The notes under the pieces: model-generated | Database searches by the model: none | Told to the model about the DNA's origin: nothing | Seen by the model: the letters and a program-made list of their open reading frames with translations, nothing else | Part shown: positions 9,155 to 56,724 of the stretch, in pieces | Layout of the letters: the number at the start of each line of letters is the position of its first letter | Position numbering within the stretch: position 1 is the first letter of the stretch | Assembly: GCA_964383765.1 (NCBI GenBank) | Contig: CAYLHT010000004.1 | Location: 3,539 to 67,538 of the forward strand | Direction of reading: 5' to 3' | Source of the DNA: an uncultured Gammaproteobacteria bacterium | GTDB taxonomy: Bacteria; Patescibacteriota; Patescibacteriia; SBBC01; CAIJZX01 | Length of the DNA: 64,000 nt | Translations under genes and position numbers: made by a program

Positions 9155-9883
9155 TTAGTAGGTTGGACTGGAGGCGCCGTGTGCAAAGATAGAGACGAGA
9201 ATCGAAAGCAGGAGAAAGGCGCCCCCGATGCAGAAGATGACAATCCCCCAGATGCCCCACTGTCGCTGGACCTGTTTAAACTGATCGACGCTCTCCCAGC
9301 GGCCGGCTTTCCAGGCCCACTCGTTACCTTTGATCCCTAGGACAATCCACCAAACGTAACTGAGAACTGGAACGAAGCTTAAGAGAGATAACCAAACGCT
9401 ATGTGAGATTCCCCAAATCCAGGTTAAGCCGGCTGCTCCCCAGTTCCAACCCTCGATCTCAGGCGGCACCACCGACGCATCCCCTTTGCCTGACCGTTCG
9501 TCATAGTGACTATCGGGAGCAATGGTTTTTTTATTCAAGAACACGATGCCGAGAGGGACAAAGACAAAGATGCCGATCACCCCGAGGAGCGCCACGAGCC
9601 CGAGAATAAGATTGATAATTTTTATTACTGTCGTGCCGAGCGTTACCGAATCGCCACTCGGATTGGTCGTCCGCGAAATAAAAATGACAATCGCCCAAAT
9701 GAACAGTGTGGCAACCAGGGTCAGGAACGGCAACAGGATAAAAAATATTCCGAGTTTTTTATTTTTGTTCGAGACGACCATCGCAGTATTCTGCGGGGGT
9801 TTTGGAACTTCTGTAGTAGTTGATTTTTTGGTTGGGCTCATGACAATACGATACGACAGCAACCGATCAGTGTAAAGGGCCAC
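9155..9883 (-). CDS. Hypothetical integral membrane protein (Trp-rich C-terminal half). The true start may be the internal Met at 9841
   Basis: Multiple TM helices and WxW-rich segments. No clear SD at either candidate start. Confidence 0.45.
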   Translation of the reverse strand: MALYTDRLLSYRIVMSPTKKSTTTEVPKPPQNTAMVVSNKNKKLGIFFILLPFLTLVATLFIWAIVIFISRTTNPSGDSVTLGTTVIKIINLILGLVALLGVIGIFVFVPLGIVFLNKKTIAPDSHYDERSGKGDASVVPPEIEGWNWGAAGLTWIWGISHSVWLSLLSFVPVLSYVWWIVLGIKGNEWAWKAGRWESVDQFKQVQRQWGIWGIVIFCIGGAFLLLSILVSIFAHGASSPTY

Positions 9884-48254: not shown

Positions 48255-48368
48255 ATCAGTAGTGTATCAGAGACTTGACAAAGATGTCCTTTTCTGTCAA
48301 CGTGGTCCCATTACTGAAACACGCCGAACTGCTGTCTTGTTGTTGTTTGACAACCAAGGAGAGCATCC

Positions 48369-49112
48369 ATGCCCTCGCCTATTCGTGGGTCAACCAAAGA
48401 GTGCTTGGCGCACTACTTTGCTCAGCTGCCGCCGACCAGTCAACGGTCCGGGGTGCGCGCGCGAACGCCGCTGATCCAGTATTGCGGCTGCATCCGGCGG
48501 ACCGTTGCCGATTGGCAAACCGGTCCCCTGCCAGTCGGTGTCTACTTGATCAAGCTTCGCTTTTTTTTGGCGAGCCAAGGATACACCGTCACCGAGTTGG
48601 AGAGTTTGCACCCGTTGGTCCGTTCGCTCGGCTTGATCCTGGCCGAGGGGCGAGCCACGCTCGAGGAATTGCGTCTGGCGCTGGGGTATTCGGACCAGCA
48701 AGAAGTCTTGACGATTCTTCGAGGTAAGCAGAAGCCATACCACCTGGAACAGCGTCTGCAACCACTGGTCGACCGTTACCGAGCGGAACCGAAACCCCCG
48801 GCGACCGGAGTGAAACCGGCCAATGGTGGCGCCGTTCGGGCCACCCCACCCTCAATTCCGGGCGTGAATGGAAGTCAGAAGGGTCTCGTCATCAAGACGC
48901 TCGGCGCCATGATCAAGGCCATGCTACCGCTTGCGAAAGCGGTTGAAGCCAGCCCATTCACCGTCGCCGATCGTGATGCGCTGCATGAGTTGCTGCCCGA
49001 GAACGAGATGTTCCATCTGATCTACTCCCTCAAGCGGCTCACCAGTGAGACCGCTCGACGGGACATCCCACCTGAAGCGCAATCCCACCAAGGAGGAGAC
49101 CGTGGGCGATAA
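48369..49112 (+). CDS. Hypothetical protein, first gene of the high-GC three-gene island
   Basis: AAGGAG SD 7 nt upstream of the ATG. High-GC codon usage. No recognised domain. Overlaps the next gene by 11 nt. Confidence 0.55.
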   Translation: MPSPIRGSTKECLAHYFAQLPPTSQRSGVRARTPLIQYCGCIRRTVADWQTGPLPVGVYLIKLRFFLASQGYTVTELESLHPLVRSLGLILAEGRATLEELRLALGYSDQQEVLTILRGKQKPYHLEQRLQPLVDRYRAEPKPPATGVKPANGGAVRATPPSIPGVNGSQKGLVIKTLGAMIKAMLPLAKAVEASPFTVADRDALHELLPENEMFHLIYSLKRLTSETARRDIPPEAQSHQGGDRGR

Positions 49113-50817
49113 CGAGCTCAAAGGCGTCAGCCAGTTCGGCTTTCACATGGGTAACACCATGGCCAGCATCGCGGCCGAGTATCCGCTCCTGCACGACGTC
49201 ATCAAGGAGTGTGTCCAGAATGCACTGGACGAGGACGCTCGACAGATCACGATCGTCGTCAACCTGCGCACGCGGCGGGCGGCGGTGCGTGACGATGGGA
49301 ACGGCTGCAACCAGTCCAAGTTCGACGCGGCGCTGCTCCAGATCAATCAGTCGTCCAAGCTCAAGAAGCGGTTGAAGCTCGGCCGTTTCGGCAAGGGTTT
49401 GATCTCGCCGTTCGGCAAGGGCAAGTACTTCACGTTCACGTCGTGCCCCAAGGGCCGCAACCGCGACTACATCGAGTGGATGTTCGACACCGATGAGATT
49501 ACGCATCAGGCGCGGACCAACACCATTCCGTTCCGGAAGCGCACCGAGCTGATTCGCGGCCTGGAAGGCATCCCGCCCAAGGGGTGTGCTCTCCGGTGGT
49601 GGTCGACCGAAGTGGCGATCGAAGAGATCACCGAAGACCGGGTCATCAGCAAGGTCAACGGTGAGAGCCTCGTGTTCGACATCCTCAAGACCTTCGGCCT
49701 GGCGATGCGGTTGAAGCAGACCGAGATCCAGATCAAGGTGATCAACGAGGATGGTCGGGACTTCGAGCGGACGTTCACCGCCGACGAGCCCACCGGCCAG
49801 CCTCTGCCGGTGGTGGAGTTGGCGGACAAGGACGCCGGCATGGTCACCTTCCGACTGGCCGTCGCTCGGAAAACCGAGCAGGGTCGGCGCGGCGTGGTCT
49901 CGGTCGGCGAGACCGATGACCTCTACCGTTTCCGATTCTCGAATCTGCGGATGCAGGCGAACGAGTGGTTGCCCAAGGAGGCCTTCGACGCGCTGACGTC
50001 CGGGTTCTTCGAGGGTGAGATCACGGCCACTGGGGTCGAGCTGCAAGCCTCGCGCAAGAGCTTCAAGCCCGGCAACGCGGTGGTCGGGTTCTGCGCGGCG
50101 CTCGAGGAGTGGTACAAGAAGCACGGCGACGCGATCTTCACGGACTTGCGCGAAGAGCGTAAGGACGAGGAGTTCGTGGATTCGGCCCAGCGTTGCTTCA
50201 GTGTGCTGAAGGGTATGCTGGGGCTGCCGCAGTTCCGACACCTGAATGAGGTGTTGGATGCGGCCAAGTTGGGAACCATCGGTCCTGGGCACAGTCGCAA
50301 GGGTAAGCACATCATCGGTCAGCAACCGGTCGGGGCCTACGCTCACAGTTCCGAGCACCGGGCCGCGCCGGGTGAGTCGACGCGGGAGCGGGGGGAGCCG
50401 CGGCATGATCTGCCCAAGCATCACCCCTTCTCAGTCCTGAGCGAGAGTGGGCGCAAGCGGTCGATCGTTTCTGATGACAGTCTCGGCCTGCAGATCGTGG
50501 CCGTCGAACTGGACCAGGAGACGTTCTGGGAATACGACCCAACCTGCGGGCTGCTGAGCATCAACCATCTCTACGGCGCCTGGCGCCAGGTGGAGAAGGA
50601 TGCGCGGATGCGAGATCGTCTGATGCTGTTCGCCGCGGTCCAGGCGCTCTCGCTGCATTCCATGCCGGATGATTACCAGACGACCCAGCGCCTGGTGCTC
50701 AACGCCATGGTCGACCCGTATACGTTCACCCTCGTCAACGCCGAAGCCCTGTCGGGGCGGCGACGCGGACGGAGTGAACCGAAGCGGGCGGTGGCCCAGA
50801 TCAAGCGTAAGGCTTGA
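49102..50817 (+). CDS. GHKL-superfamily ATPase, MORC/Hsp90/MutL-like (HATPase_c_3-type)
   Basis: In-frame GTG start with an AAGGAGG SD 6 nt upstream. Bergerat motifs: N-box ECVQNALDED, G1 DDGNG, G2 GRFGKGLISPFGKG. About 571 aa from the GTG. An intrinsic terminator follows. Confidence 0.65.
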   Translation: MGDNELKGVSQFGFHMGNTMASIAAEYPLLHDVIKECVQNALDEDARQITIVVNLRTRRAAVRDDGNGCNQSKFDAALLQINQSSKLKKRLKLGRFGKGLISPFGKGKYFTFTSCPKGRNRDYIEWMFDTDEITHQARTNTIPFRKRTELIRGLEGIPPKGCALRWWSTEVAIEEITEDRVISKVNGESLVFDILKTFGLAMRLKQTEIQIKVINEDGRDFERTFTADEPTGQPLPVVELADKDAGMVTFRLAVARKTEQGRRGVVSVGETDDLYRFRFSNLRMQANEWLPKEAFDALTSGFFEGEITATGVELQASRKSFKPGNAVVGFCAALEEWYKKHGDAIFTDLREERKDEEFVDSAQRCFSVLKGMLGLPQFRHLNEVLDAAKLGTIGPGHSRKGKHIIGQQPVGAYAHSSEHRAAPGESTRERGEPRHDLPKHHPFSVLSESGRKRSIVSDDSLGLQIVAVELDQETFWEYDPTCGLLSINHLYGAWRQVEKDARMRDRLMLFAAVQALSLHSMPDDYQTTQRLVLNAMVDPYTFTLVNAEALSGRRRGRSEPKRAVAQIKRKA

Positions 50818-50839
50818 TCGCGAGCTACGTTCGAACCTT

Positions 50840-50872
50840 CCCCCGAGGTGTTTCTCGCCTCGGGGGGTTTTT
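50840..50872 (+). terminator. Rho-independent terminator after the GHKL ATPase gene
   Basis: CCCCCGAGG-tgtttctcg-CCTCGGGGG followed by GTTTTTCTTATT. Confidence 0.7.
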
Positions 50873-51251
50873 CTTATTCGGATTCTTGACACGGGCGGTA
50901 AGCTGTGATAAGTCTGTGGCGCAGTCATCGCTCGTTGTCAAACCCTCAACCCACAGGAGGTGGTCTTCAACGACCCGTAAGAAAGCGACACCCCCGGAGG
51001 GACCTGGGATTCGAGCCACCATTGCGGCAGTTCACCCAGAGTACCTGGTCCTCTACCCTGAGGACCGCTCACTCCTCCCGGCCGGCGAGAACATCACCTG
51101 TTCCCGTCGCAACTGGCGAGGACGACGCCCACCGGAGAAAGGGCAGGTCGTCATGCTGTCCGAAATCCTCCGGTACGCTAAAGGCTGGCGAACGCGATCC
51201 GCGCGTCCCGTCACCTTGGCAGACACAAGACCCAAGACGAAAGGGTAACTC

Positions 51252-52073
51252 ATGGCTCCGAAAGCCAAAACCGCCGTGCTGTCGTTCAAGCAGATCACCG
51301 TTCCGTTCTTCGTTCGCCGCGGACTCGACCAGTCCCGGGTGGACTACTTCGTCAACCTGTACCGGTCCGGCGGAGACGTCGAACCGATCCTGGTCAACCG
51401 GAAGGGCGAGCTGATCGAGGGCCGGCATCGCCTCAAGGCCCAGGAGGTGCTCAAGCGCAACAAGGTGACGTGCATGGTCACCGATATCACCGACCGGGCC
51501 AAGATGATCGAGCTCGCGATGCAAGCCAATTCCGGCGGCGCCAAGCCGATGTCGGAAGAGGACTACATCTACAGCGCGACGCATCTGCTCGAGCTGAACC
51601 GGCCCTACCGACAGGTGGTCAAGAGCCTGATCGGCATGGGCTTGCCCGACCAGTACGCCCGTCGGCTGGTGTCGAACGCCAGGGCCAACATCGGCAAGGC
51701 CAAGATGCGGGCGGCCGCCGAGGACGTGGTCGATCGCGATGTGCCGATCGCCGAGGCTGCCAAGAAGCACGGGGTGGAGGTGACCAGCCTGCGGTCGTCG
51801 CTCCGCAGCCGGGGTCGGGCAGCCACCAAGACCGATCGCCCGGCGACGATCAACTCCCTGCTCAGCAAGCGGTTCAAGGCGTTGTCGAGCAGTAATGGTC
51901 GCCTGCTCCAGGGCCTGTTCCGGTCCTACGAGGACGGCGACGTCAGCGAGAAGACGATCAAGGCCGCCCTGACGAAGATGAAGGAGCTGCACGTCAAGCT
52001 GGGCGTGGTCATCGATGACCACGAGAACCGCTTCGCGAAGCTGTCCGGTCGCCGGATGCGGCGGTCGGCCTAG
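51252..52073 (+). CDS. ParB/Srx/DGQHR-fold domain protein (ParB-like N-terminal domain)
   Basis: ILVNRKGELIEGRHRLKAQEV matches the ParB/sulfiredoxin GxxRxxA-type core (EGRHR). 273 aa. A downstream terminator follows. Confidence 0.55.
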   Translation: MAPKAKTAVLSFKQITVPFFVRRGLDQSRVDYFVNLYRSGGDVEPILVNRKGELIEGRHRLKAQEVLKRNKVTCMVTDITDRAKMIELAMQANSGGAKPMSEEDYIYSATHLLELNRPYRQVVKSLIGMGLPDQYARRLVSNARANIGKAKMRAAAEDVVDRDVPIAEAAKKHGVEVTSLRSSLRSRGRAATKTDRPATINSLLSKRFKALSSSNGRLLQGLFRSYEDGDVSEKTIKAALTKMKELHVKLGVVIDDHENRFAKLSGRRMRRSA

Positions 52074-52084
52074 CAGTGCAACAC

Positions 52085-52117
52085 CCCCCCGATGGAAACG
52101 TCGGGGATTTTTATTTT
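52085..52117 (+). terminator. Rho-independent terminator after the ParB-like gene
   Basis: CCCCGA-tggaaacg-TCGGGG followed by ATTTTTATTTT. Confidence 0.6.
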
Positions 52118-52945: not shown

Positions 52946-55900
52946 CTAGCCAAATATCTGCCTAGCATGTTCGACGTCATCAACCCCCACCGACCAATCT
53001 AACCAGACCACCCGTAAATCGTTGACTGGGGCAGGCGGGGTCGTGTCAGGGGAGATAACGGGGTTGTTCACAATCATCACGACGGTCGGGGAAAAGGCGG
53101 AGTTCCCGGCGTTGTCGCGGGCAAGGGCGGTCAGGTCATAGGTACCGTTGGGAACTGAGTTGCTATCCCAGGAGTATACTAACTGTCCCGACCCAAGAAT
53201 TTTTTGTGAGATGGGTTCACCATTCAGGAAAAATTGAGTGTCTTTCACCCCGCTCGTGCCGAAATCGAAGACCGAGATTCTGAAAGAGACGATGCCGCTT
53301 ACTTGCGTTCGGTCGGTCGGAGAGTAAATGGTTGCAATCGGAGGATCGGTATCAATATTCCCGACATTGTTCACGGTTACAGAAATTGCACTCGAGGTAG
53401 TCGTGTTTGTACCATCGGTAGCGGAGGCGGTCAGCGTGTGTGTTCCATTTGAAAATGGGGTCGTATCCCAGTACTGAACATACGGGGAAGCGGTCAAGGT
53501 TGAGCCTAGTGGCTGGCCATCGACGTACACTTGGACCCCGGTCACGAGGCTATTATCGGCGGCGGTCAATCCGACAGCAACGGTGCCGCCGACGGTTGAG
53601 CCATTCGTCGGGGTAGTGATGCTGATCGTCGGCGGCTCTGTGTCGCCATTCGGATCAACCAAAACTCCATCCGAGGATTGGGTTGGGCCAATATTGCCAG
53701 CTGCATCAACGGTTCGAACGGAAACGTAATAGTGCCGACCCGACGTCAGGGTCAAGTTGTTCAAACTCACTCGCGTATCGATCAAGGCTTGAAAGGACTG
53801 GACGTCAGTTCCGCCCGGTGTCGTCCCGATCGCATACTGATACGTCACGCCAGACGCATCATTGACGACTTGCCAGTTCGCGGACAGGTTGGTCAGACTG
53901 TTTTGGACATCAATATCAGCTCCAGTCCCATCGTTCACAAATCCGGTCGCCGGGGGCGAAGTATCATCGACCAACACGCCACTCGACGTCGCCCGCGGAC
54001 CAGCCACCCCATTCAGACCGACCGAACGAACGGAAAAATAGTAGTGCTGACCCTCCACCAGGGCTAAGCCAGTCCGACTGGCATAGATGTTTTTTCCGAC
54101 GTCAGTATACCCCACCACATTCGTCGCGCCGGCCGTCGTACCGATGGCGTATTGGTAATGATCAAGCGTCGCCAGGTCCGGCGAATCACACCAGAAAGCG
54201 GTTAAGACTGATGGCGAATTGGTGGCCGAGTTTTCCGCGCCCCCGACCACGCCATCCAGCACACAATCCGGCGGCAAGGGGCGGCTGCCGGTCGTCAGCG
54301 GACCGGCCGGAGCTGGAGGAGTTGTATCGATAGTGACGCCGTCGGACCAGGTCATATAACTTGCGTTGCCGGCTATATCGATTGCCTGCACTCCAATCAA
54401 ATAGGTCGTCCCGGGTGTCATGGTTAAACCGGTTTGTGAAAACGACGTCTGAAGTCCGTTATCAGTTAGCGGGATGAGGTTGATGCCATCCGGCGTATCA
54501 ACTTCATATTTGTATTTAGCCACCCCAGTGCCATCATCAGTCACCGCATCCCAATTCCCCGCCAGCGAAGTCGTATCAGTTTGAACATCAATATCTTGGC
54601 CGGGTCCATCGTTGACGATGGCCGGGGCCAGCGGCGGGATGGTATCAAAATTCGGCGACGTCACGGTCACGCTCAGGCTGGTCGGCGTGGTTGAGTTGAC
54701 CGTGATGGTTGATCCATTCTTCGGATCAGTCAAGGACTGTCCCGGTTTCAACACCGAATCGACTTGAGTATTCGTCGGTTGTGGCGAAGCATCCAGTAAG
54801 TACGTATAGATGCCATTCGTGTCTAGAATCAGTGCTCCACCGAAGACCGCAGATAACCGGGGATCGCTCGCTGAGAACATCTGCCCATCAGTATTCAGAG
54901 TCACCCCGTCGGCCTGATACGGTTGCCGATATTCAACCGTGGTGTATTCGTTTTGGTCACGCTGAATTCGTAACAGTTTGGTTCCTGCTCCGGCTTGGTC
55001 GACTGGAGTGAGGGTCACGGTCTGACCCGGAGCATGGTTGTTGATGGTGATTGATTGGCCAGGAATCCAACCGGCCAAGTCTTTGCGTTCAGCACTAAAA
55101 TGTCCTTGGTCATAAATCTCATAAAACGGATCATAAATTTGCCCGCCCATCACATCGTAGGGATTTCCGTACTCGACATTCTGGCAAGTTGAATCGTAAA
55201 ACGTTGTGCCGGCCGGACACGATGTCCAACTCGCATGCCCACCGCCAACCAGGGTATGCCCAAGTTCGTGGTTCCAGATGTACTGAATTCGTTGTGAAGT
55301 TTTTGGCAGTTTCACCCAGATCGTATACATCGGAATCGTGCCTTCGTTAGTCGTGTAGTTGATTTGCCACGGCCAAGCCAACCCATCCCAGGCGCAAGAT
55401 TGATCCGTGGTTTCGTCCGGGTAGGCCTTGTACGGAACCAGGATGGCCAGGGTTTGATTTGCCAGTTGGCTGAAGTCGACATCAGGGTCAGCTTGGGTCA
55501 CCAACTGCTGGGCAAATTGCATGTAGGGGCAGGTATTACCCCGCGCCACCGGCACCTCGTACCAATCCCGATTGGTAAACTGCCATTGGTACTGCCCATA
55601 GGAATTGTCCGCGTAATAAGAATTGACGGTATTGGAAATTGTTTGCAGCGTTGAAAAATTTGGGGACCGAACGTCCGTGTTGTTGAAGTCGCCCATCAGC
55701 GTCAAGACTTTGGCGTGGCTTGCGGCTAGTGTTTGGGGCGAAGAAATGACGGATGTGATCGTTGGAGCTGAGGAAGGGCTGGTCTCAGTTTTTACGAGAA
55801 AGGCATCGTCTAGGGTGTAGCCATCAACTTGAAAGGTTGCTCCTGGTGTGATCACTGTCTTCGACCCTTCGACCCCATACACAGTGTATGTTTGATTCCG

Positions 55901-56455
55901 AGTTCGTAATAACAATTCATTCATTCCAGGCTGCTTGTCATCAACCAGATCTCCGTGCAGAGCGTGGATCTGTCCTTGGACTTTGGCTGCCTGCTCAACA
56001 CAGCCTCGACTAACGGCGGCTAATTTTCTCTCCTGGGCCGACCCGAACACCAATTTCTGGGCCGCTACCGGATCGCTCGACATCAAATCCCGCAGCGCTT
56101 GTTTCCGAGCTTGAGCGGCGTGTTGCAGCGCTCCGCGTTTGAATATTTTTCCGGCCCCAGCGGTTTCATAATCCGCGCGAGCCTCGAGAACTTGCTGGTT
56201 GAGGGTTTGTACTTGGCTCTCAGATAACGAGCGGGACGAGTTTGTCGAGCTGACCGATGAACATGTGACTGCGGTCAGATCTGGCACCACCGAAAAGGCC
56301 ATCCCGATAACCCCCAATCCGATGCCGAGAGAAAGCAAAATCACGGCCACTTCGGTTTTCTCGAGAACCGGAACCTGGATGGCTGTTTCGATTGTGGGTC
56401 GTTTCTGTTTGGCCATGATTTTCATTCCACGAGGTGGATTTTTTTCTCCGACCAA
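52946..56455 (-). CDS. Large (1169 aa) secreted/surface protein with an HExxH zinc-metalloprotease motif and tandem Ig/FN3-like repeats; TTG start
   Basis: N-terminal TM/signal anchor. WNHELGHTLVGGGH (HExxH) lies around residue 400. Two repeated about 100-aa modules (VNDGPGQDIDVQTDTTSLAGNW... and VNDGTGADIDVQNSLTNLSANW...). C-terminal tandem ~100-aa Ig-like repeats (TDPPIATIYSPTD..., TEPPTISITTPTN...). Confidence 0.6.
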   Translation of the reverse strand: MVGEKNPPRGMKIMAKQKRPTIETAIQVPVLEKTEVAVILLSLGIGLGVIGMAFSVVPDLTAVTCSSVSSTNSSRSLSESQVQTLNQQVLEARADYETAGAGKIFKRGALQHAAQARKQALRDLMSSDPVAAQKLVFGSAQERKLAAVSRGCVEQAAKVQGQIHALHGDLVDDKQPGMNELLLRTRNQTYTVYGVEGSKTVITPGATFQVDGYTLDDAFLVKTETSPSSAPTITSVISSPQTLAASHAKVLTLMGDFNNTDVRSPNFSTLQTISNTVNSYYADNSYGQYQWQFTNRDWYEVPVARGNTCPYMQFAQQLVTQADPDVDFSQLANQTLAILVPYKAYPDETTDQSCAWDGLAWPWQINYTTNEGTIPMYTIWVKLPKTSQRIQYIWNHELGHTLVGGGHASWTSCPAGTTFYDSTCQNVEYGNPYDVMGGQIYDPFYEIYDQGHFSAERKDLAGWIPGQSITINNHAPGQTVTLTPVDQAGAGTKLLRIQRDQNEYTTVEYRQPYQADGVTLNTDGQMFSASDPRLSAVFGGALILDTNGIYTYLLDASPQPTNTQVDSVLKPGQSLTDPKNGSTITVNSTTPTSLSVTVTSPNFDTIPPLAPAIVNDGPGQDIDVQTDTTSLAGNWDAVTDDGTGVAKYKYEVDTPDGINLIPLTDNGLQTSFSQTGLTMTPGTTYLIGVQAIDIAGNASYMTWSDGVTIDTTPPAPAGPLTTGSRPLPPDCVLDGVVGGAENSATNSPSVLTAFWCDSPDLATLDHYQYAIGTTAGATNVVGYTDVGKNIYASRTGLALVEGQHYYFSVRSVGLNGVAGPRATSSGVLVDDTSPPATGFVNDGTGADIDVQNSLTNLSANWQVVNDASGVTYQYAIGTTPGGTDVQSFQALIDTRVSLNNLTLTSGRHYYVSVRTVDAAGNIGPTQSSDGVLVDPNGDTEPPTISITTPTNGSTVGGTVAVGLTAADNSLVTGVQVYVDGQPLGSTLTASPYVQYWDTTPFSNGTHTLTASATDGTNTTTSSAISVTVNNVGNIDTDPPIATIYSPTDRTQVSGIVSFRISVFDFGTSGVKDTQFFLNGEPISQKILGSGQLVYSWDSNSVPNGTYDLTALARDNAGNSAFSPTVVMIVNNPVISPDTTPPAPVNDLRVVWLDWSVGVDDVEHARQIFG

Positions 56456-56648: not shown

Positions 56649-56724
56649 CGGGGTATGGCGCAGTTGGTAGCGCGCATGCATGGGGTGCATGAGGCCGTGG
56701 GTTCGAGTCCCGCTACCCCGACCA
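56649..56724 (+). tRNA. tRNA-Pro (anticodon GGG), CCA encoded
   Basis: Acceptor CGGGGTA/TACCCCG, D-arm GCGC-AGTTGGTA-GCGC, anticodon stem CATGC/GCATG with loop ATGGGGT, T-arm GTGGG-TTCGAGT-CCCGC, discriminator A, then CCA. Confidence 0.8.

What the first reader, a model, noticed from the sequence alone, without database searches (positions are those of the whole stretch)
49102..50817. GHKL ATPase of the MORC/Hsp90 type, with a GTG start and no kinase H-box
Seen directly: E-x3-N-A-L-D-E (N-box), DDGNG (G1) and GRFGKGLISPFGKG (G2, the GxFGxG form characteristic of Hsp90/MORC/MutL rather than histidine kinases). No phospho-acceptor His-box or dimerisation motif precedes the ATPase. The about 350-aa C-terminal region is unassigned and could carry an effector or DNA-binding module (it has an RFRFSNLRMQANEW segment and a basic stretch GPGHSRKGKHIIGQQ). 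The most plausible start is the in-frame GTG at 49102, which has a perfect AAGGAGG SD 6 nt upstream. The ORF-track ATG/GTG at 49045 lacks an SD.
Basis: partly seen in the sequence, partly recalled or inferred. Interest (0 to 1): 0.7.

Follow-up and report, generated by a model that had tools for sequence, protein, structure and literature searches.

The report
MORC/MutL-type ATPase with HTH partner
The gene does encode a MORC/MutL/Hsp90-type ATPase, not a kinase; it belongs to an undescribed family, mostly from tiny "candidate phyla radiation" bacteria, that always travels with its own DNA-binding partner gene on a small foreign-looking island, which suggests a DNA-acting conflict or defence module of untested function.

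Summary
ORF 49102-50817 (GTG start, AAGGAGG 5 nt upstream) encodes a 571-aa protein with all the GHKL motifs. It passes Pfam HATPase_c_3. Its best sequence-profile matches are MutL, Hsp90 and MORC2. Its best fold matches (SMCHD1, MORC3/2, MutL) span 255-288 residues, so they cover both the GHKL domain and an S5 transducer. There is no H-box and no histidine-kinase match.

New findings:
- It belongs to an unnamed family of at least 435 clusters (50% identity), all about 550-590 aa, mostly in Patescibacteria (CPR) genomes.
- An approximately 250-aa protein with an XRE-type helix-turn-helix is encoded immediately upstream in 41 of 43 loci, and it co-evolves with the ATPase.
- A conserved approximately 90-aa protein is a third component in 17 of 38 non-redundant loci. 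In this window it lies downstream, unannotated, ahead of a ParB_N-like gene.
- The four genes form a sharp GC-rich island (GC3 0.68-0.90 against 0.44-0.58 in the flanks).
- The conserved C-terminal domain matches no family. It has a zincin-like fold but no HExxH.

Best reading: an HTH-guided, ATP-driven dimeric DNA clamp or switch in a mobile conflict module. The function is inferred, not shown. I class it as a new variant of the MORC/paraMORC kind.

The parts
48275..48353 (+). Promoter/operator-like region upstream of the partner gene: TTGACA (48275-48280) and its inverted copy TGTCAA (48295-48300), plus a further TTGACAA (48347-48353) next to the RBS
   Evidence: The boxes are conserved in L001, while the spacer between them is not. 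The role is inferred. TTGACAA is not enriched window-wide, and the sigma-70 scan found no full promoter.
48369..49112 (+). Partner gene, 247 aa: N-terminal XRE/lambda-repressor-type helix-turn-helix, a possible second HTH-like unit, a variable linker, and a conserved C-terminal helical module
49090..49096 (+). Shine-Dalgarno AAGGAGG, 5 nt before the GTG start
   Evidence: Read directly from the sequence.
49102..50817 (+). GHKL-S5 ATPase gene, 571 aa, GTG start
49102..49641 (+). GHKL (Bergerat-fold) ATP-binding domain, aa 1-180, carrying E36/N40/D43, D64/G66/G68, K88, G94-G99 and S114
   Evidence: Pfam HATPase_c_3 covers aa 31-128. Residue conservation across 152 sequences. AF2 pLDDT is 80-93 over most of the domain.
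49660..50031 (+). S5-fold transducer domain, aa ~187-310 and continuing to the invariant R318-x-x-F321 (nt 50053-50064)
50074..50262 (+). Long helical hairpin, aa 325-387
   Evidence: AF2 secondary structure. W337 and G342 are conserved.
50269..50427 (+). Low-complexity linker, aa 390-442, bounded by the conserved motifs G391-x-x-G394-x-G-H397 and H440-x-P442
   Evidence: pLDDT below 50. The motifs are conserved in more than 80-90% of members.
50428..50754 (+). Conserved C-terminal domain, aa 443-551: five strands followed by long helices. No family assigned; zincin-like fold without HExxH; probably the dimerisation or partner-binding module
50839..50877 (+). Intrinsic-terminator-like hairpin with T-run, directly after the GHKL stop
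   Evidence: The hairpin position is conserved in L001 and L005.
50886..50976 (+). Second promoter-like region: TTGACA at 50886, inverted TGTCAA at 50936, and a conserved AGGAGGTGGTCTTCAACGACCC box at 50955-50976
   Evidence: The role is inferred.
51009..51248 (+). Small conserved protein (about 79-110 aa, depending on the start), the third component of the module. The start codon is unresolved: ATT at 51009 with GGAGGG upstream, or GTG at 50916
   Evidence: 76% identical to the L001 orthologue, with mostly third-position differences. The family was detected in 17 of 38 non-redundant loci, usually directly upstream of the partner gene. No Pfam or PDB match.
51252..52073 (+). ParB_N-like protein with a C-terminal HTH-like region, 273 aa; a lineage-specific fourth gene of the island
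   Evidence: Weak ParB_N hits (Pfam 0.0037; phrog_620 1.3e-7; Spo0J 0.04) that include the LIEGRHRLKA segment. It follows the small gene in the window, L001 and L032 only. GC3 is 0.90.
52087..52106 (+). Terminator-like hairpin closing the island

Best explanation
The ORF encodes an active GHKL+S5 ATPase of the MutL/MORC/SMCHD1/Hsp90 class. It is the enzymatic core of a small accessory module that moves horizontally and is found mainly in Patescibacteria (CPR).

The module has three regular parts, plus a fourth in this lineage:
- a dedicated XRE-type helix-turn-helix protein, always encoded directly upstream and translationally coupled
- the ATPase
- in about half of the loci, a ~90-aa beta-rich protein
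- in this lineage only, a ParB_N-like protein

Proposed mechanism:
1. The HTH partner binds DNA and, through its conserved C-terminal helices, recruits the ATPase.
2. The ATPase is held as a dimer by its C-terminal domain.
3. ATP binding closes the N-terminal GHKL gate, as in MutL, MORC and Hsp90. The invariant R318 of the S5 domain completes the active site.
4. The complex therefore clamps or remodels DNA (or the partner) in an ATP-dependent cycle, in the service of genome conflict: defence against, or silencing of, foreign DNA.

Shown here: the fold class, the intact ATP motifs, the obligatory linkage and co-evolution of the two genes, the third component, and the island character.

Inferred: complex formation, dimerisation, DNA clamping and the conflict role.
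For: Fold and sequence class:
- Pfam HATPase_c_3, E=2.7e-12, above threshold.
- The family profile hits MutL (4e-8), Hsp90 and MORC2, but no kinases.

Catalytic residues conserved in 152 members: E36, N40, D43, D64, G66, G68, G94, G97, G99 (93-100%), and R318 at 100%.

Size of the family: at least 435 representatives at 50% identity with E<=1e-30, all full length.

Linkage to the partner:
- The partner is immediately upstream in 41 of 43 loci, overlapping or abutting the ATPase start.
- Mantel r=0.80 between partner and ATPase distances; 0 of 2000 permutations reached it.
- The partner carries an HTH.

Third component: the small protein is present in 17 of 38 loci.

Accessory or mobile character:
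- GC3 is 0.68-0.90 in the island against 0.44-0.58 in the flanks. A similar excess is seen in L001, L004, L005 and L011.
- The flanking genes differ between loci and are housekeeping genes (rpsP, M50 peptidase, VWA, Mur ligase, P-type ATPases).
- The family is found in only 31 of the loci recovered from 185,579 species representatives, mostly CPR.
Against: - No nuclease, methylase, helicase or toxin domain is present in the module or recurs next to it. That is unlike every described MORC/paraMORC, MZA or Shedu context.
- No defence-system model matches.
- No integrase, flanking repeats or consistent tRNA site explains how the module moves.
- The island sits at the same site in two genomes whose flanking proteins are only 51-80% identical. 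It can therefore be long-resident.
- The conserved His, Arg, Ser and Asn residues of the C-terminal part hint at an enzymatic site that this model does not use.
- The partner model is of low confidence (pLDDT 51).
- No complex prediction could be run.
Confidence: 0.55

Rival explanations
1. An effector-bearing defence ATPase. The conserved C-terminal region (G-x-x-G-x-G-H397, H440-x-P, G450-x-x-R453, S460-x-G462, N488-x-x-H491) is a new hydrolytic effector, a nuclease or peptidase. The GHKL-S5 module switches it on or off, as in paraMORC3 (RecB-type nuclease) or the GHKL-Shedu protein VcSduA. The HTH partner acts as sensor or regulator.
Against: There is no HExxH, PD-(D/E)xK, HNH or GIY-YIG motif. 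The profile of the region hits nothing in PDB sequences or Pfam. H397 and H440 lie in a segment predicted to be disordered. The window protein itself has Y at the 91%-conserved H491 position.
Confidence: 0.2
2. A regulatory switch, not an effector. The ATPase, whose C-terminal domain resembles the ImmA/IrrE/CapP zincin fold, acts on its XRE-type repressor partner by sequestering or remodelling it in an ATP-dependent way. This controls transcription of neighbouring genes; here those are the small-protein and ParB-like operon.
Against: The metallopeptidase motif is absent. In most loci there is no conserved downstream operon to regulate. In other loci the TTGACA boxes look like ordinary -35 elements. 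A 570-aa GHKL-S5 machine is unusually large for a mere anti-repressor.
Confidence: 0.12
3. A lineage-specific housekeeping GHKL protein: either a divergent Hsp90-like chaperone or a MutL-like repair factor of CPR bacteria.
Against: Scores fall far below the equivalog cut-offs: MutL 25.9 against 180 bits, HtpG 12.3 against 455. There is no MutL endonuclease or dimerisation domain. The distribution is sporadic, the contexts vary, and the GC content is foreign. The obligatory HTH partner has no counterpart in either system.
Confidence: 0.06
4. A histidine kinase or anti-sigma-type protein kinase that phosphorylates the partner, like CapK-CapS or a two-component system.
For: The Bergerat fold is shared. 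The arrangement of a regulator gene next to a GHKL gene superficially recalls CapK/CapS (PMC13373217).
Confidence: 0.02

Closest known systems
Prokaryotic MORC and paraMORC1-5 families (Iyer, Abhiman & Aravind 2008, PMC2292703)
   Same: An N-terminal GHKL domain with all ATP motifs, an S5-fold domain that supplies a conserved basic residue, and a family-specific C-terminal extension. The distribution is sporadic and mobile.
   Different: - The MORC-specific S5 motif GhXhhpXXRhl is not matched exactly.
- Instead there is an obligatory XRE-HTH partner and a ~90-aa protein.
- The family is centred on CPR bacteria.
Eukaryotic SMCHD1 and MORC2/MORC3 ATPase modules (6mw7, 5of9, 5ix1)
   Different: Sequence identity is 12-13%. 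There is no CW, coiled-coil insertion, UBL or SMC-hinge domain. The C-terminal domain is different. Any DNA targeting would come from a separate HTH protein.
MutL N-terminal domain
   Different: The score is far below the MutL equivalog cut-off. There is no MutL C-terminal dimerisation or endonuclease domain and no MutS/MutH context.
Hsp90/HtpG and sacsin SRR domains
   Different: The scores are sub-threshold. The gene has an operonic HTH partner and island-like genomics.
GHKL-containing defence proteins: MZA MzaB, BbrUII/HgiDII restriction enzymes, and the GHKL-Shedu protein VcSduA
   Same: A GHKL ATPase embedded in a mobile conflict system.
   Different: Only weak hits confined to the N-terminus (E 1e-3 to 1e-4, far below the cut-offs). 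No DUF4263 or restriction nuclease domain is present, and none of those systems' partner genes are nearby.

Membership tests
GHKL (Bergerat-fold) ATPase superfamily | Motif I (E-x3-N-x2-D), motif II (D-x-G-x-G), motif III (G-x-x-G-x-G lid) and motif IV (T/S) | tested here: met
   E36/N40/D43, D64/G66/G68, G94/G97/G99 and S114 are each conserved in 93-100% of 152 members. Pfam HATPase_c_3 scores 47.3 bits against a cut-off of 25.
GHKL+S5 class (MutL, Hsp90, type II topoisomerase B, MORC) | An S5-fold transducer domain after the GHKL domain that supplies a conserved basic residue to the active site | tested here: met
   [not shown]
MORC family sensu stricto | The G-h-X-h-h-p-X-X-R-h-l motif in the S5 domain (PMC2292703) | tested here: not met
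   The nearest equivalent is G269-x6-R276-F (GETDDLYRF), or G264 with a spacing of 12. The G-to-R spacing is therefore 7 or 12 rather than 8, and the hydrophobic pattern differs.
[not shown]
   None occur in the window island, and none recur among the neighbours in 38 loci.
paraMORC1-5 | Sequence membership in one of the five named families; for example the ExxxH motif (paraMORC2), a C-terminal RecB nuclease (paraMORC3) or a TIR domain (paraMORC4) | not testable with these tools
   No profile of these families is available in the libraries. The C-terminal RecB, TIR and ExxxH features were not seen.
MutL | Reaches the MutL equivalog score and has the C-terminal dimerisation/endonuclease domain | tested here: not met
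   TIGR00585 scores 25.9 bits against a cut-off of 180, and the hit covers only the N-terminus. The C-terminal profile hits no MutL chain.
Hsp90/HtpG | Reaches the HSP90 family score over the N, M and C domains | tested here: not met
   NF010683 scores 12.3 bits against a cut-off of 455. The only matches are N-terminal profile hits of 1e-3 to 3e-5.
Sensor histidine kinase | A HisKA/H-box dimerisation and phospho-acceptor domain before a HATPase_c domain | tested here: not met
   The ATPase domain starts at about residue 30. HATPase_c scores 18.1 bits against a cut-off of 26.4. No kinase appears among the top profile or fold hits.
GHKL-Shedu (type I-D, VcSduA) | A C-terminal DUF4263 PD-(D/E)xK nuclease | tested here: not met
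   No DUF4263 or other nuclease hit in Pfam or PADLOC.
CapK/CapS regulator pair | A SpoIIAB-like small kinase plus a STAS-domain repressor | tested here: not met
   [not shown]
ImmA/IrrE/CapP-type metallopeptidase with an XRE repressor | A zincin fold with an HExxH catalytic motif | tested here: not met
   [not shown]

The most novel reading that the evidence does not exclude
The module is a previously unrecognised, CPR-centred immune or silencing system. A sequence-specific HTH adaptor loads a MORC/SMCHD1-like GHKL clamp onto foreign DNA, with the ~90-aa protein and the new C-terminal domain acting as sensor or effector. It would be a prokaryotic counterpart of adaptor-guided MORC silencing in eukaryotes, and one of very few dedicated conflict systems known in these reduced genomes.
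Probability: 0.25. Interest if true: 0.75.

Novelty: new variant of a known kind. Interest (0 to 1): 0.55.

Why it matters
- Bacterial GHKL+S5 ATPases of the MORC kind have so far been tied to restriction-type systems that include nucleases and helicases. This family has neither. It is instead welded to a DNA-binding HTH protein and a small unknown protein.
- It is common enough to count as a real family (at least 435 clusters at 50% identity), yet it has no name in Pfam, NCBIfam, PADLOC or PHROGs. I found no paper on it.
- It is concentrated in CPR/Patescibacteria, whose defence and genome-conflict biology is poorly known.
- If the clamp-plus-adaptor model holds, it offers a simple bacterial model for how MORC and SMCHD1-type ATPases are targeted to DNA, and it adds a new module to the list of candidate defence systems.
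- At the annotation level, the work fixes the start codon, assigns the transducer domain, and reveals an unannotated small gene.

Tried and rejected
Searches that gave nothing:
- PADLOC, NCBIfam and PHROGs gave only weak, sub-threshold hits to the N-terminal GHKL domain (TmtA, MzaB, BbrUII, MutL, sacsin). No system could be assigned.
- The profile of the C-terminal 190 aa found nothing meaningful in PDB sequences or Pfam; the TFIIA hit at E=0.45 is noise.
- The profile of the small protein found nothing in PDB or Pfam.
- IMG/VR viral contigs hold no relative. BFVD fold hits are only generic GHKL proteins (phage topoisomerase II, rIIA, Hsp90; TMq at most 0.42).
- Rfam found only two tRNAs in the window.

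Island boundaries and regulatory elements:
- A repeat search found no direct or inverted repeats at the island boundaries.
- tRNA adjacency is not consistent across 37 loci.
- TTGACAA is not enriched window-wide: 12 found, 12 expected. The idea that it is an operator therefore stays a weak inference.

Systems considered and rejected:
- CapK/CapS (anti-sigma-type kinase plus STAS) and GHKL-Shedu, both on domain content.
- The ParB near L034 and L035 is the canonical chromosomal ParB and is unrelated to the module.

Technical limits:
- The AFDB50 fold library was unavailable.
The three-sequence model is poor (pLDDT 51), so only its HTH core was used.
- The first word-indexed homology search found only 9 relatives. 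That understated the family, which the exhaustive profile search showed to be large.
- The window's own protein was missed in that first search because its 90% cluster is represented by a 49-aa fragment.
Full report
**1. The observation**

Numbered from the GTG at 49102 they are:
- E36-x3-N40-A-L-D43-E
- D64-D-G66-N-G68
- G94-R-F96-G97-K-G99-LISPFGKG
- RFRFSNLRMQANEW (aa 276-289)
- GPGHSRKGKHIIGQQ (aa 394-408)

Three things support this start:
- The upstream GTG at 49045 has no SD and lies within the conserved C-terminus of the preceding gene, which stops at 49110-49112.
- The nine first-round homologues all begin at the aligned position of 49102.
- The exact 571-aa product is in the public protein collection, and the 590-aa version is not.

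The 461-aa antisense ORF at 49039-50424 is the usual stop-free artefact of a GC-rich gene. The GC3 of the sense frame is 0.84.

**2. What the protein is**

Sequence evidence:
- Pfam HATPase_c_3 matches residues 31-128 at E=2.7e-12 (47.3 bits, cut-off 25). The kinase-type HATPase_c model stays below its threshold.
- A profile of the family against all PDB sequences hits MutL N-terminal domains best (4e-8). PMS1/PMS2, Hsp90 N-domains (3e-5 to 1e-3) and MORC2 (1.6e-3) follow. No histidine kinase or GyrB is in the top 60.

Structural evidence:
- The AlphaFold2 model has a mean pLDDT of 75, and 80-95 in the folded parts.
- Alignments of 255-288 residues cover both a GHKL domain (aa 1-180) and an S5-fold transducer (aa ~187-320). 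Separate hits to ribosomal protein uS9 and to GHMP kinases confirm the S5 fold.

Conservation:
- In an alignment of 152 diverse members, the ATP-binding and hydrolysis residues are 93-100% conserved.
- R318, in the transducer, is invariant. It is the natural candidate for the basic 'finger' that Lys or Arg supplies in MutL, GyrB and Hsp90. That role is an inference.

After the transducer come three further regions:
- a long helical hairpin (aa 325-387)
- a low-complexity linker (aa 390-442), bounded by the conserved motifs G-x-x-G-x-G-H397 and H440-x-P
- a well-predicted C-terminal domain (aa 443-551)

**3. The family**

The word-indexed search found only nine relatives, at 72-29% identity. 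The exhaustive profile search found 435 representatives of 50%-identity clusters at E<=1e-30, all 520-630 aa and matched end to end.

A scan of one genome per species returned 31 loci. Most are from Patescibacteria/CPR: Saccharibacteria, Parcubacteria/Paceibacterota, Vogelbacteria and Taylorbacteria. A few MAGs are labelled Gammaproteobacteria, Bdellovibrionales or Acidobacteriaceae; I could not verify those labels.

No Pfam, NCBIfam, PADLOC or PHROG family covers anything beyond the GHKL domain. Literature searches found no description of the family.

**4. The surroundings: a conserved module**

*The partner.*
- In every context examined, a gene of 230-290 aa with no Pfam match lies immediately upstream, abutting or overlapping the ATPase start.
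- An HMM of this partner detects it in 41 of 43 loci, always in that position.
- Pairwise distances of partner and ATPase are correlated across 33 loci: Mantel r=0.80, with 0 of 2000 permutations as high. The two genes are inherited as a unit.
- The partner profile hits an XRE-family regulator in the PDB (3op9, E=3.6e-4) through a typical '...GVs..TV..W..G...P.G..L.RL..FL' helix-turn-helix.
- Individual members hit HTH_17, HTH_23 and HTH_3.
- Behind the HTH region lie a variable linker and a conserved helical C-terminal module (LA..A.PLA...SD.FT.E.R..LR.L....VF.LSN.LN.LCSE.AR). This is the likely contact to the ATPase, by inference.

*The small protein.*
- Clustering of all neighbouring ORFs revealed only one further recurrent gene: a ~90-aa protein with the motif sITFS..W.G...P..GQVV.L.....F.KGWRA..A.P.
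- It is present in 17 of 38 non-redundant loci, normally as the first gene of the operon.
- In the window and its closest relative L001 it lies downstream of the ATPase instead, within the mechanically listed ORF 50814-51248.
- There it is 76% identical between the two genomes, with mostly third-position differences.
- It ends 3 nt before a ParB_N-like gene (51252-52073).
- The pairing of small gene and ParB-like gene recurs in L032, divergently oriented.
- The small protein matches nothing in Pfam or the PDB.

*The ParB-like protein.* Its N-domain similarity is weak but consistent, and it includes an LIEGRHRLKA arginine-patch equivalent. It also has an HTH-like C-terminal part.

**5. Island character**

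- The four genes form a block with sharp compositional borders. GC3 is 0.68 (partner), 0.84 (ATPase) and 0.90 (ParB-like), against 0.44-0.58 in the flanking abhydrolase, DEAD-box helicase and 144-aa genes.
- The same excess is seen in L001, L004, L005 and L011, and more mildly in L002 and L006.
- Flanking genes differ from locus to locus and are ordinary housekeeping genes.
- L005, which is 70% identical, sits in a different context from the window.
- No integrase, boundary repeats or consistent tRNA site was found, and there are no viral relatives.
- One point is unexplained. The island occupies the same site in L001, whose flanking proteins are only 51-80% identical to the window's. It has therefore either resisted amelioration for a long time or been replaced repeatedly.

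Transcription signals within the island:
- A terminator-like hairpin follows the ATPase gene (50839-50877), and another closes the island (52087-52106).
- TTGACA/TGTCAA boxes conserved in L001 lie in both intergenic regions. Whether they are operators or plain -35 elements is open.

**6. Mechanism**

The best-supported reading is an adaptor-guided GHKL machine:
1. The HTH partner binds DNA and holds the ATPase.
3. ATP closes the N-terminal gate, giving an ATP-timed clamp or remodelling step on DNA.

The sporadic, compositionally foreign and context-independent distribution points to genome conflict (defence, silencing of foreign DNA, or maintenance of a selfish element) rather than housekeeping.

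- Shown: fold class, intact catalytic motifs, obligatory linkage and co-evolution, the third component, and island character.
- Inferred: complex formation, dimerisation, action on DNA and the biological role.

The main rival is that the C-terminal region is a new catalytic effector. In its favour:
- H397, H440, R453, S460, N488 and H491 are 82-98% conserved.

Against it:
- There is no HExxH or any nuclease motif.
- Nothing was found by profile search.
- The window protein itself has Y at the H491 position, with an H two residues earlier.

A third reading is an ATP-driven anti-repressor acting on the XRE partner, by analogy with ImmA/ImmR, IrrE/DdrO and CapP/CapH. It cannot be excluded. The chaperone, mismatch-repair and kinase readings are unlikely.

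**7. Comparison with what is known**

- The protein works like a member of the MutL/MORC/Hsp90 GHKL+S5 class, and it meets that class's defining features.
- It is not a MORC in the strict sense. The S5 motif GhXhhpXXRhl that defines MORCs (PMC2292703) is not matched.
- It also lacks the helicase, nuclease and methylase neighbourhoods of MORC and paraMORC systems.
- It falls far below the MutL and HtpG equivalog thresholds.
- It lacks the nuclease of GHKL-Shedu (PMC12137116).
- It differs from CapK/CapS (PMC13373217).
- It is best described as a new paraMORC-like family with its own partner set.

**8. Verdict**

The added value is fourfold:
- the gene is the core of an undescribed, CPR-centred two-to-four-gene module
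- that module has an obligatory HTH partner
- it includes an unannotated small gene
- the ATPase has an unassigned conserved C-terminal domain

I rate the novelty as a new variant of a known kind and the interest as moderate (0.55). The family is sizeable and unnamed, and it departs from all described MORC-type contexts, but its function is only inferred.

Noticed in passing
window 50916-51248 (+): An unannotated small protein-coding gene lies between the ATPase and the ParB-like gene. Conservation with L001 has a coding signature. No canonical start codon follows the conserved AGGAGGTG box. The candidate starts are ATT at 51009 (GGAGGG 7 nt upstream; L001 has ATC at the aligned position) and GTG at 50916, directly after a -10-like box.
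   Followed up: partly
window 48300-52100: A sharp GC-rich island: GC 0.60-0.65 and GC3 0.68-0.90, against 0.44-0.58 in the flanks. It sits at the same site in L001, even though the flanking proteins of the two genomes are only 51-80% identical. The lack of amelioration is unexplained.
   Followed up: partly
window 50955-50976 (+) and L001 ~9850-9875: A conserved box, AGGAGGTG(G/A)TC(T/G)T(C/T)AACGACCC, lies in the 5' region of the small gene. It is not followed by a usable start codon and may be a regulatory or RNA element.
   Followed up: no
window 50566-50577 (aa 489-492 of the ATPase): The window protein reads N-H-L-Y-G-A-W where 91% of the family has N-x-x-H-x-x-W, and its closest relatives have N-Y-L-H or N-F-I-H. 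The His and Tyr appear to be swapped. It also has G107 where 94% of members have Cys.
   Followed up: no
window 49039-50424 (-): A 461-aa antisense ORF covers most of the ATPase gene. I treat it as a stop-free artefact of the GC-rich sense frame, not as a gene.
   Followed up: partly
window 52946-56455 (-): A 1169-aa ORF with a TTG start and an N-terminal hydrophobic segment. It carries an HELGH zinc-metallopeptidase-like motif (IWNHELGHTLVGGGHAS) followed by many repeated T/S-rich Ig/FN3-like segments. It is probably a large surface protein.
   Followed up: no
L009 6584-6862 and L010 2111-2389: In this lineage, the position of the ~90-aa beta-rich protein upstream of the partner gene is taken by an unrelated 92-aa coiled-coil protein (weak SlyX hit). 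The third component may have been displaced non-orthologously.
   Followed up: no
L038 3375-5012 and L039 5977-7614: These are the two most divergent family members (26-27% identical). No partner was detectable with the HMM. Their upstream ORFs were not examined further.
   Followed up: no
window 56649-56724 and L005 6251-6324: A tRNA-Pro(GGG) gene lies a few kb from the module both in the window and in L005, although the intervening genes differ. This may be coincidence.
   Followed up: no
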